A stretch of DNA of 58,493 bases, the filler included, from Sanchytrium tribonematis (lineage: Eukaryota): the NCBI GenBank assembly GCA_018985235.1. It is 7 parts of 7 records of this genome, joined end to end, with 100 filler letters (N's around TTAATTAATTAA, not from the genome) between each part and the next. Parts side by side here need not be neighbours in the genome. Positions count along the whole stretch, not along the records: positions 33,668 to 41,901 come from JADGIG010000386.1; 6 more parts are not named here. The stretch is one strand, 5' to 3'. Within the stretch, counting starts at the first letter, position 1, and the number at the start of each line of letters is the position of its first letter. A program made the position numbers and the translations under genes. Under the pieces are notes generated by a model, which saw only the letters and a list, made by a program, of their open reading frames with translations, had not been told where the DNA came from and made no database searches. Below, one piece after another: positions 38,758 to 39,240 of the stretch.

Positions 38758-39240
38758 ATGTCTGGCTTTGCAACTGTAACACTTATGGGTCGAGTAACAA
38801 AAGATGTGTCACCACGACAAGTGGATACTAGAAAAGGCGAAATGACTGTGCATGATTTGTCAATTGCAGTGAATAGTTTTGTAAGCGGTAAAGAAGTTGG
38901 TACGTTTTTTTCAAGTACAATCTGGCCTGGCCGATTTGATGGCATGCTGCCATTTTTAAAGAAAGGGAAAGCAGTTATTTTATCTGGTGATTTTTATATG
39001 GCTACTTTTCGAAGTGAAAGTGGTGCGTGGGAGTCACGATTAAATGTTGAGTTGAGCTCGCTAAAATTCACGTTAAGTGATTCCAAAAATTTGGTGTTAG
39101 CCCGTGAACGTGAACAAAAAAAAGAATCTGAAAAGAAGGAGGATGAACACCAAAAGATTTTAAATGAAATCTACGACTCTGATGATGAATCCGATCTTCA
39201 AGAAAGTACACCTGGATCTAAACGCCCGCGCACCGATTAA
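38758..39240 (+). CDS. ssb: Bacterial-type single-stranded DNA-binding protein (SSB OB fold) with acidic and NLS-like tail
   Basis: VTLMGRVTKD..R..V..LSIAVN..IW..FLKKGKAVILSGD..F...G follows the SSB consensus. There is no mitochondrial presequence and no DIPF tail; it ends GSKRPRTD. Confidence 0.85.
   Translation: MSGFATVTLMGRVTKDVSPRQVDTRKGEMTVHDLSIAVNSFVSGKEVGTFFSSTIWPGRFDGMLPFLKKGKAVILSGDFYMATFRSESGAWESRLNVELSSLKFTLSDSKNLVLAREREQKKESEKKEDEHQKILNEIYDSDDESDLQESTPGSKRPRTD

What the first reader, a model, noticed from the sequence alone, without database searches (positions are those of the whole stretch)
38758..39240. Helitron-like element equipped with a bacterial SSB instead of an RPA-like protein
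Seen: a classical SSB OB fold immediately upstream of RepHel, with no mitochondrial presequence. The bacterial acidic-Pro-Phe tip is replaced by an acidic stretch and KRPR, and AATAAA follows the stop. From memory, the segment IWPGRFDGMLPFLKKG..SLKF is close to chlamydial SSBs, which needs checking. Established: some Helitrons encode RPA70-like ssDNA-binding proteins. Inference: convergent recruitment of a bacterial, possibly endosymbiont-derived, SSB retargeted to the nucleus to protect rolling-circle intermediates.
Basis: partly seen in the sequence, partly recalled or inferred. Interest (0 to 1): 0.7.

Follow-up and report, generated by a model that had tools for sequence, protein, structure and literature searches.

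The report
Rolling-circle transposon carrying bacterial SSB
A rolling-circle transposon, in what is likely an early-branching fungus, carries just inside its left end a bacterial-type single-stranded-DNA-binding gene whose tail has lost the bacterial docking tip and ends in a predicted nuclear-import signal; the protein likely coats the transposon's single-stranded intermediate, a job that related transposons are thought to give to borrowed eukaryotic RPA proteins.

Summary
Largely confirmed and extended. 38758-39240 encodes a bacterial-type SSB (PF00436 above cut-off; bacterial SSB fold), 34 bp upstream of a Helitron Rep with intact HUH/two-tyrosine motifs and the Helentron (HLE2) signature. 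The contig ends inside Rep, so the helicase is unseen. Contigs of run X1 put the element's left end at 38490: three other flanks join there and one contig looks like the empty site, so the SSB lies inside a mobile, few-copy element; a diverged second copy keeps the SSB-end/Rep-start junction. The SSB belongs to a 13-member clade (95/86) that includes a Sanchytrium protein; 0 of 12 members keep the acidic-Pro-Phe tip and 6 of 12 end in a basic cluster. Chlamydial origin is open: best profile scores are chlamydial, but identity is only about 29% and the tree neither shows nor rejects it (AU p 0.46, 0.33); a phage donor is as plausible. Linkage to Rep in other species, nuclear import and function are untested. 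Known Helitron ssDNA-binding cargo is RPA or archaeal-type PF21473; my paper searches found no bacterial-type case, and this scan's notes held none. New variant of a known kind.

The parts
38490..38494 (+). Left terminus of the element (TTCCC; first base ambiguous between 38490 and 38491)
   Evidence: table 7: three contigs bring unlike flanks before 38486, 38490 and 38493; one contig keeps this window's left flank to 38490 and goes on unlike (probable empty site). Sequence.
38495..38757 (+). 5' non-coding part of the element, likely holding the SSB promoter; 4 CCAAT/ATTGG boxes against about 1 expected
   Evidence: motif count; promoter role is inference; variant copies cover it.
38758..39240 (+). 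Bacterial-type SSB gene, 160 aa, no intron
38770..39069 (+). OB fold, residues 5-104
   Evidence: PF00436 6-104; strands E5-13 to E91-104, pLDDT mostly above 90.
39073..39174 (+). Predicted charged helix, residues 106-139, in place of the usual disordered linker
   Evidence: pLDDT 71-83; prediction only.
39220..39231 (+). KRPR basic cluster after an acidic stretch; predicted monopartite nuclear localisation signal
   Evidence: Sequence; similar clusters in 6 of 12 clade members against 8 of 122 other hits.
39243..39248 (+). AATAAA, possible poly(A) signal in the 34-bp spacer
   Evidence: Sequence; weak by itself.
39275..41901 (+). Helitron-like Rep ORF, cut by the contig end; helicase not in the window
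   Evidence: PF14214 E 4.8e-15; Helraiser 7LCC E 2.7e-4 over motifs 2-3; Atlas neighbours are Helitron clusters.
41171..41215 (+). Rep motif 2 FFRFEFQKRGSPHIH (HUH; Helentron/HLE2-type F-x-R and G-S-P)
   Evidence: diagnostic residues from PMC4067079 passages.
41552..41575 (+). Rep motif 3 YLTKYITK with both catalytic-position tyrosines

Best explanation
This is a Helentron-type (HLE2) rolling-circle transposon present at several sites, and the bacterial-type SSB gene lies inside it, between the left end and Rep, where it likely serves as the element's own helper protein. Shown: the terminus, several flanks, a probable empty site, the Rep motifs, the SSB fold and the changed tail. Inferred mechanism, by analogy with Helitron biology: Rep nicks the donor strand through its HUH/two-tyrosine site, a helicase (presumed to follow beyond the contig end) peels the strand off, and the SSB, imported into the nucleus through its basic tail, coats that single strand and guards it against nucleases, hairpins and re-annealing until Rep joins it to a target. 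The acidic-Pro-Phe tip was dispensable because its bacterial partners are absent. The gene came from a prokaryote or phage once, before the split of the 13-member clade; a chlamydial donor is about 40% likely, an unsampled phage or other bacterium about 60%.
For: [quoted passage not shown]
Against: Unitigs are short and cannot be phased: it is not shown that the three other left ends lead into SSB-bearing copies. One copy has a 1-bp deletion at 38965 and one contig leaves the SSB at 38791, and the diverged junction copy has an altered Rep start codon, so some copies are decayed. The synonymous excess is not significant (5 of 11; p 0.07-0.17). No contig of another species with both genes was found in IMG/VR or JGI scans. 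6 of 12 clade members do not match the basic-cluster pattern, which I wrote after seeing the alignment. HELIANO argues such cargo genes are often not essential. DUF6570, an HLE2 marker, was not detected.
Confidence: 0.62

Rival explanations
1. Passenger capture: the SSB clade is an old horizontally acquired nuclear host gene of these fungi, and this element merely picked up a copy, with no role in transposition.
For: Helitrons capture genes often (PMC11417382); some copies are broken; the context of all other clade members is unknown; selection signal among copies is weak.
Against: Whole, intronless ORF in the position HLE2 gives to RPA cargo; junction with Rep kept in a diverged copy; many divergent paralog-like relatives at under 50% identity, several partial, fit a mobile gene better than a single host ortholog (inference).
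Confidence: 0.25
2. On origin only: the donor was a phage or another bacterium, and the chlamydial likeness is a short convergent or ancestral motif.
For: The free tree puts the clade beside three unnamed Pro-Phe-tipped SSBs (P0030, P0097, P0148), behind a 92/89 branch from the rest including all chlamydial rows; identity to chlamydial and other SSBs is near equal; P0030 scores higher than P0001 on the chlamydial model (74.3 vs 63.9); Atlas neighbours are phage-rich clusters.
Against: Family profile scores 120 of 120 scored Chlamydiota genomes (best 36.9-78.7 bits) against 43 of 61 Chloroflexota (best 44.8); PRK06293 is the top model for 11 of 13 family candidates; the R-F-D-x-M and K-G-x-A positions are shared with 67-83% of chlamydial rows and 3-18% of others; AU tests do not reject a chlamydial sister or nesting (p 0.46, 0.33).
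Confidence: 0.55
3. It is the host's mitochondrial SSB (Rim1), or a copy of it, lying by chance beside a Helitron.
For: Mitochondrial SSBs share the fold and appear among Foldseek matches; no fungal Rim1 was in the tree.
Against: No presequence; inside a multi-site element; basic C-tail across the clade. Human mtSSB scores only 24.6 bits, but an ordinary bacterial SSB scores it equally low, so that score says little.
Confidence: 0.05
4. Bacterial contamination or a chimeric contig.
For: Bacterial-like SSB and an Abi-class RT-like gene sit side by side; no listed piece of X1 spans the whole contig.
Against: Same contig carries a U1-C zinc finger and an Na+/H+ exchanger; Rep is eukaryotic; GC3 0.29 matches host genes at 0.28-0.35; no rpsF/rpsR context; relatives in a second eukaryote proteome.
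Confidence: 0.03

Closest known systems
Helentron / HLE2 elements with accessory RPA ORF (PMC4067079, PMC11417382; passages and section 22 read)
   Same: Rep motif 2 signature (F-x-R, G-S-P-H-x-H); separate ssDNA-binding ORF upstream of Rep; proposed helper role.
   Different: Cargo is a single bacterial-type OB (PF00436), not RPA70-like or PF21473; insertion is not T|T; DUF6570 not detected; endonuclease, helicase and right end unseen.
proto-Helentron of Phytophthora (5'-TT, inserts A|T; PMC4067079) and FoHeli1/2 of Fusarium (start TC or TTC, insert between TNAT and A; PMC5148889)
   Same: HLE2-type Rep with a left end reading TTC; junctions fit either R|TTC with T after, or T|TC with A after.
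   Different: Three of four filled sites and the probable empty site have CAG(T) at the junction (chance about 3e-4); no 5' hairpin of note was predicted; no SSB cargo described there in the passages read.
Plant Helitron RPA homologs (PHRPA, Mothra; PMC4683698 passages)
   Same: Horizontally acquired ssDNA-binding protein carried by a Helitron.
   Different: Eukaryotic RPA70-like, multi-exon, HLE1; here a prokaryotic-type, intronless gene in HLE2.
Bacterial SSB (PF00436/TIGR00621), nearest named model PRK06293
   Same: OB fold, aromatic residues at F41, F50 and W56 (matching the classical ssDNA-stacking positions; E. coli numbering recalled), R-F-D-x-M..L-K-K-G motif.
   Different: No acidic-Pro-Phe tip; predicted long helix and basic tail; score far below the PRK06293 cut-off; eukaryotic transposon context.

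Membership tests
Bacterial-type SSB (PF00436) | OB domain above the Pfam cut-off and SSB fold | tested here: met
   32.1 bits vs 26; Foldseek E 6.6e-9 to mycobacterial SSB.
Bacterial-type SSB (PF00436) | Acidic C-terminal tip ending in Pro-Phe | tested here: not met
   0 of 12 clade members vs 97 of 122 other hits.
Bacterial-type SSB (PF00436) | Homotetramer | not tested
Bacterial-type SSB (PF00436) | Binds ssDNA | not testable with these tools
   Needs a binding assay.
Chlamydial SSB (PRK06293 model) | Score at or above the equivalog cut-off of 156 bits | tested here: not met
   63.9 bits. The model is read as chlamydial because P0026, 51% identical to a Chlamydiaceae MAG SSB, scores 209.8.
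Chlamydial SSB (PRK06293 model) | Nests in or is sister to Chlamydiota SSBs | tested here: inconclusive
   Not in the free tree; AU p 0.461 and 0.326; 102 columns only.
Mitochondrial SSB (Rim1/SSBP1) | N-terminal presequence | tested here: not met
   First strand begins at residue 5; no upstream in-frame ATG in the 11 open codons; no predictor run.
Mitochondrial SSB (Rim1/SSBP1) | Single-copy host gene | tested here: not met
   Variant copies and several flanks.
Mitochondrial SSB (Rim1/SSBP1) | Groups with mitochondrial SSBs in a tree | not tested
   No mitochondrial sequence could be fetched as a tree row.
HLE2 (Helentron/Helitron2/proto-Helentron) | Rep with HUH motif and two tyrosines | tested here: met
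HLE2 (Helentron/Helitron2/proto-Helentron) | Motif-2 signature F/Y-x-R and Ser in G-S-P | tested here: met
   FFRFEFQKRGSPHIH vs PMC4067079; the middle residue F is outside the listed w/l/y/k.
HLE2 (Helentron/Helitron2/proto-Helentron) | PIF1 helicase fused to Rep | not testable with these tools
   Contig ends at 41901; no whole genome held; longer homologs not found (weak search).
HLE2 (Helentron/Helitron2/proto-Helentron) | DUF6570 marker | tested here: not met
   No Pfam hit at E up to 1 or 0.5; may be too diverged.
HLE2 (Helentron/Helitron2/proto-Helentron) | Terminal inverted repeats, 3' hairpin, T|T target | tested here: inconclusive
   Only one end seen; junction reads R|T or T|A, not T|T.
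HLE2 (Helentron/Helitron2/proto-Helentron) | Mobile: same end at several sites, empty site | tested here: met
   4 filled flanks, 1 probable empty site, each from one contig of one run.
HLE1 (canonical Helitron) | Leu in G-L-P-H of motif 2 | tested here: not met
   Ser here, Leu in Helraiser.
Helitron RPA / Ssb-like_OB (PF21473) cargo | RPA70-like or archaeal-type OB profile match | tested here: not met
   PF00436 is the only Pfam hit at E up to 1; HELIANO Table S11 defines Ssb-like_OB as PF21473.

The most novel reading that the evidence does not exclude
The whole 13-member clade is the SSB module of an undescribed HLE2 lineage spread through early-branching fungi and other microbial eukaryotes: a fourth independent capture of an ssDNA-binding protein by Helitrons and the first from a prokaryote, taken once from a chlamydial symbiont and re-addressed to the nucleus by replacing its docking tip, in an element that prefers CAGT target sites.
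Probability: 0.25. Interest if true: 0.78.

Novelty: new variant of a known kind. Interest (0 to 1): 0.6.

Why it matters
Whether the ssDNA-binding cargo of Helitrons helps transposition is an old, untested proposal. A small single-domain bacterial SSB in the same slot is convergence from another domain of life, which argues for real selection on that function and offers a clean test protein (160 aa, easy to express, cannot be confused with host RPA). It is also a neat case of a bacterial replication protein re-addressed for a eukaryotic nucleus, and possibly a trace of past contact between these fungi and intracellular bacteria or their phages.

Tried and rejected
No whole genome is held for the window, so copy number, right end and helicase could not be read. 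Scans for relatives with context found none: IMG/VR with P0001, A5, A7 and the Rep core (14, 34, 127 and 7 pattern matches, none confirmed), JGI metagenomes with A5 (151 matches, none confirmed) and A7 (1 of 169 confirmed, an ordinary rpsF-ssb-rpsR operon, L005). Search for longer Rep homologs: 0 of 2045 candidates. Single-sequence fold of Rep failed (pLDDT 32.6) and was not used. blastn of Rep against phages: nothing. The two 5.8-kb phage-collection records with SSB hits are ordinary phage or bacterial fragments. No RNA holder listed. The loose sequence at 38791 matches nothing else in the window. P0138 and P0043 were dropped as family candidates (P0138 fell among bacterial rows; P0043 is an unrelated repeat protein). 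P0032 and P0044 have basic tails but are not counted in the clade: P0032 lies outside the starred branch and P0044 was left out of the careful tree as a long branch. The RT-like gene was considered as part of the element and rejected: it lies outside the left end and at single-locus depth.

Full report
Setting. The window is seven unrelated contigs of about 8.3 kb joined by N-linkers; the finding's contig is 33668-41901. It holds a U1-C zinc-finger gene, an Na+/H+ exchanger, an Abi-class reverse-transcriptase-like ORF on the minus strand, the SSB and the Rep ORF, which is cut by the contig end. The SSB protein is held in EukProt. Named relatives of the SSB and of the RT-like protein are listed under Sanchytrium tribonematis and Amoeboradix gromovi, so the host is likely a sanchytrid or a close early-branching fungus (inference). 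No whole genome is held.

The SSB. The ORF's only Pfam match is PF00436, above the cut-off. The model has a confident OB barrel from residue 5 to 104, a predicted helix 106-139 and a disordered acidic tail; all 29 listed Foldseek rows are bacterial or mitochondrial SSBs. There is no N-terminal extension. GC3 (0.29) is like the host genes (0.28-0.35), so the gene is ameliorated, not a fresh bacterial piece.

The Rep. PF14214 matches residues 466-650, the Atlas neighbours are eukaryotic Helitron clusters, and motifs 2 and 3 align with Helraiser. Motif 2 reads FFRFEFQKRGSPHIH; the F-x-R before the motif and the Ser in G-S-P are the two signatures that PMC4067079 (passages) uses to tell Helentrons from Helitrons. 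DUF6570 was not detected. The helicase is not in the window; in Helraiser about 760 residues follow the aligned stretch, here about 110 before the contig ends.

Is the SSB inside the element? One public run holds this stretch (X1, contigs only); it may be the source of the assembly, so it is not independent. Laid on 38400-39400 (30 pieces), three contigs bring unlike flanks at 38486, 38490 and 38493, and one keeps this window's left flank to 38490 and continues unlike. That is four filled sites and one probable empty site, and it puts the left end 268 bp upstream of the SSB start. All filled sites read TTCCC at the end; three of four have CAG just before it, as does the probable empty site (chance about 3e-4). 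This fits either a 5'-TT end inserting R|T like proto-Helentron or a TC end inserting T|A like FoHeli1/2, where the same ambiguity is noted (PMC5148889 passages). Summed depth rises from about 148 over host genes and 111 over the RT-like gene to 343 over SSB and 412 over Rep; the tool warns this is no copy number. Variant pieces cover the SSB: one with 2 synonymous changes, one with 8 changes (3 synonymous, 5 mostly conservative), one with a 1-bp deletion, and one contig leaves the gene at 38791. A piece with 10 substitutions and 4 gaps spans 39224-39358, that is the last 17 SSB bases, the spacer and a changed Rep start: the pairing exists in at least two copies. Because the alternative haplotype at this locus appears empty, these variants most likely come from other loci (inference). 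Limits: pieces are short and unphased; 5 of 11 synonymous changes is not a significant excess (p 0.07-0.17), third-position bias is marginal (p 0.04).

The family. The word search found 1 relative among 23 candidates. The profile search of 1.84 billion representatives gave 438 hits at E up to 0.001, 17 at 1e-10, 150 listed. In a 70-row, 102-column IQ-TREE run (14 family candidates, 12 Chlamydiota loci, 11 unnamed chlamydia-like and 33 other rows; fragments and P0011, P0020, P0044 left out; bootstrap not fully settled), 13 candidates form a clade at 95/86, and P0001 shares a 100/97 subclade with the Sanchytrium protein. Of 12 clade members (P0013 dropped, it ends at the OB fold) none ends in a Pro-Phe-type tip, against 97 of 122 other listed hits; 6 have a K-K/R-x-K/R-type cluster in the last 20 residues, against 8 of 122, and two more end in P-L-K-R. 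The pattern was chosen after viewing the alignment, members are related, and some metagenome proteins may be truncated, so the Fisher values overstate the case. Nine of the ten relatives looked up come from short ENA or Logan contigs without names, and their context could not be fetched.

Origin. Against it: scores are far below the cut-off, identity is 28.5% vs 26.2%, an unnamed non-chlamydial SSB outscores P0001 on that model, and the free tree places the clade away from chlamydiae beside unnamed Pro-Phe-tipped SSBs. AU tests reject neither a wide nor a tight chlamydial grouping (p 0.461, 0.326). The donor is unresolved. Mitochondrial origin was not tested in the tree; the low score of human mtSSB is uninformative because a control SSB scores it the same.

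Mechanism. Shown: position inside a mobile element, fold, tail change, intact Rep motifs. Inferred: nuclear import through the basic cluster, coating of the displaced single strand during rolling-circle transposition, a downstream helicase, separate mRNAs divided at AATAAA. Untested: oligomer state, binding, expression.

What is in print. PMC11417382 (passages, section 22, supplement rows) lists 20 stably captured domains; the ssDNA-binding ones are RPA and Ssb-like_OB, defined as PF21473, archaeal type, and 'PF00436' occurs 0 times in its supplement text. PMC4683698 (passages) counts at least three independent captures of RPA-like proteins. PMC8371127 main text has no occurrence of 'transpos', 'chlamyd' or 'single-strand' (its supplements were not read and could bear on this). 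Searches (listings and abstracts) showed no Helitron with a bacterial-type SSB; subscription journals and Repbase are outside the library. This scan's notes held no look-alike by sequence or place and one coral RPA-like case by words.

Verdict. A real, ordinary-looking HLE2 transposon with an unusual passenger: a prokaryotic SSB remodelled at its tail, in the slot where relatives carry RPA. New variant of a known kind; interest 0.6.

Noticed in passing
window 36242-37792 (-): Reverse-transcriptase-like ORF of the bacterial Abi/UG class (AbiK E 4.5e-19, Drt6, AbiP2) in a eukaryotic contig, outside the element. Five aligned relatives, one listed under Amoeboradix at 77%, all keep GLPTGS/GIPTGS and read RRSDN where RTs have YxDD, so the second catalytic Asp is Asn throughout. 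The window copy is shorter at the C-end than its relatives. One paper search (listing only) showed no eukaryotic case. Worth its own look.
   Followed up: partly
window 37872-38106: 118-bp tandem duplication (99% alike) just upstream of the RT-like gene; a contig of X1 skips 37683-38278, which removes it and the first 37 codons of that ORF.
   Followed up: partly
window 38487-38490: CAG(T) at the junction in three of four filled sites and in the probable empty site; possible short target preference.
   Followed up: partly
window 35820-35950: A small repeated piece between the exchanger and the RT-like gene: 9 contigs differ at 35869, and one contig skips 129 bp here; may be a short non-autonomous insertion.
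   Followed up: no
proteins P0092, P0105, P0032, P0044: More bacterial-type SSBs with long low-complexity or basic tails and no Pro-Phe tip; P0092 and P0105 join the clade, so it may reach other eukaryote lineages.
   Followed up: partly
window 13738-15421 (+): Two overlapping ORFs (402 and 172 aa) with no Pfam hit for the first, and a 41-bp repeat at 15382 and 15846; looks like a frameshifted DNA-transposon gene (impression only).
   Followed up: no
window 3-410, 5254-6487, 6747-7754: Pieces of retroelements: RT-RNase H connection, gag/protease-like ORFs and an RNase H on the first contig.
   Followed up: no
window 42113-43432 (+): Secreted-looking protein with three chitin-binding repeats and a GH16 domain, fitting a fungal parasite.
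   Followed up: no
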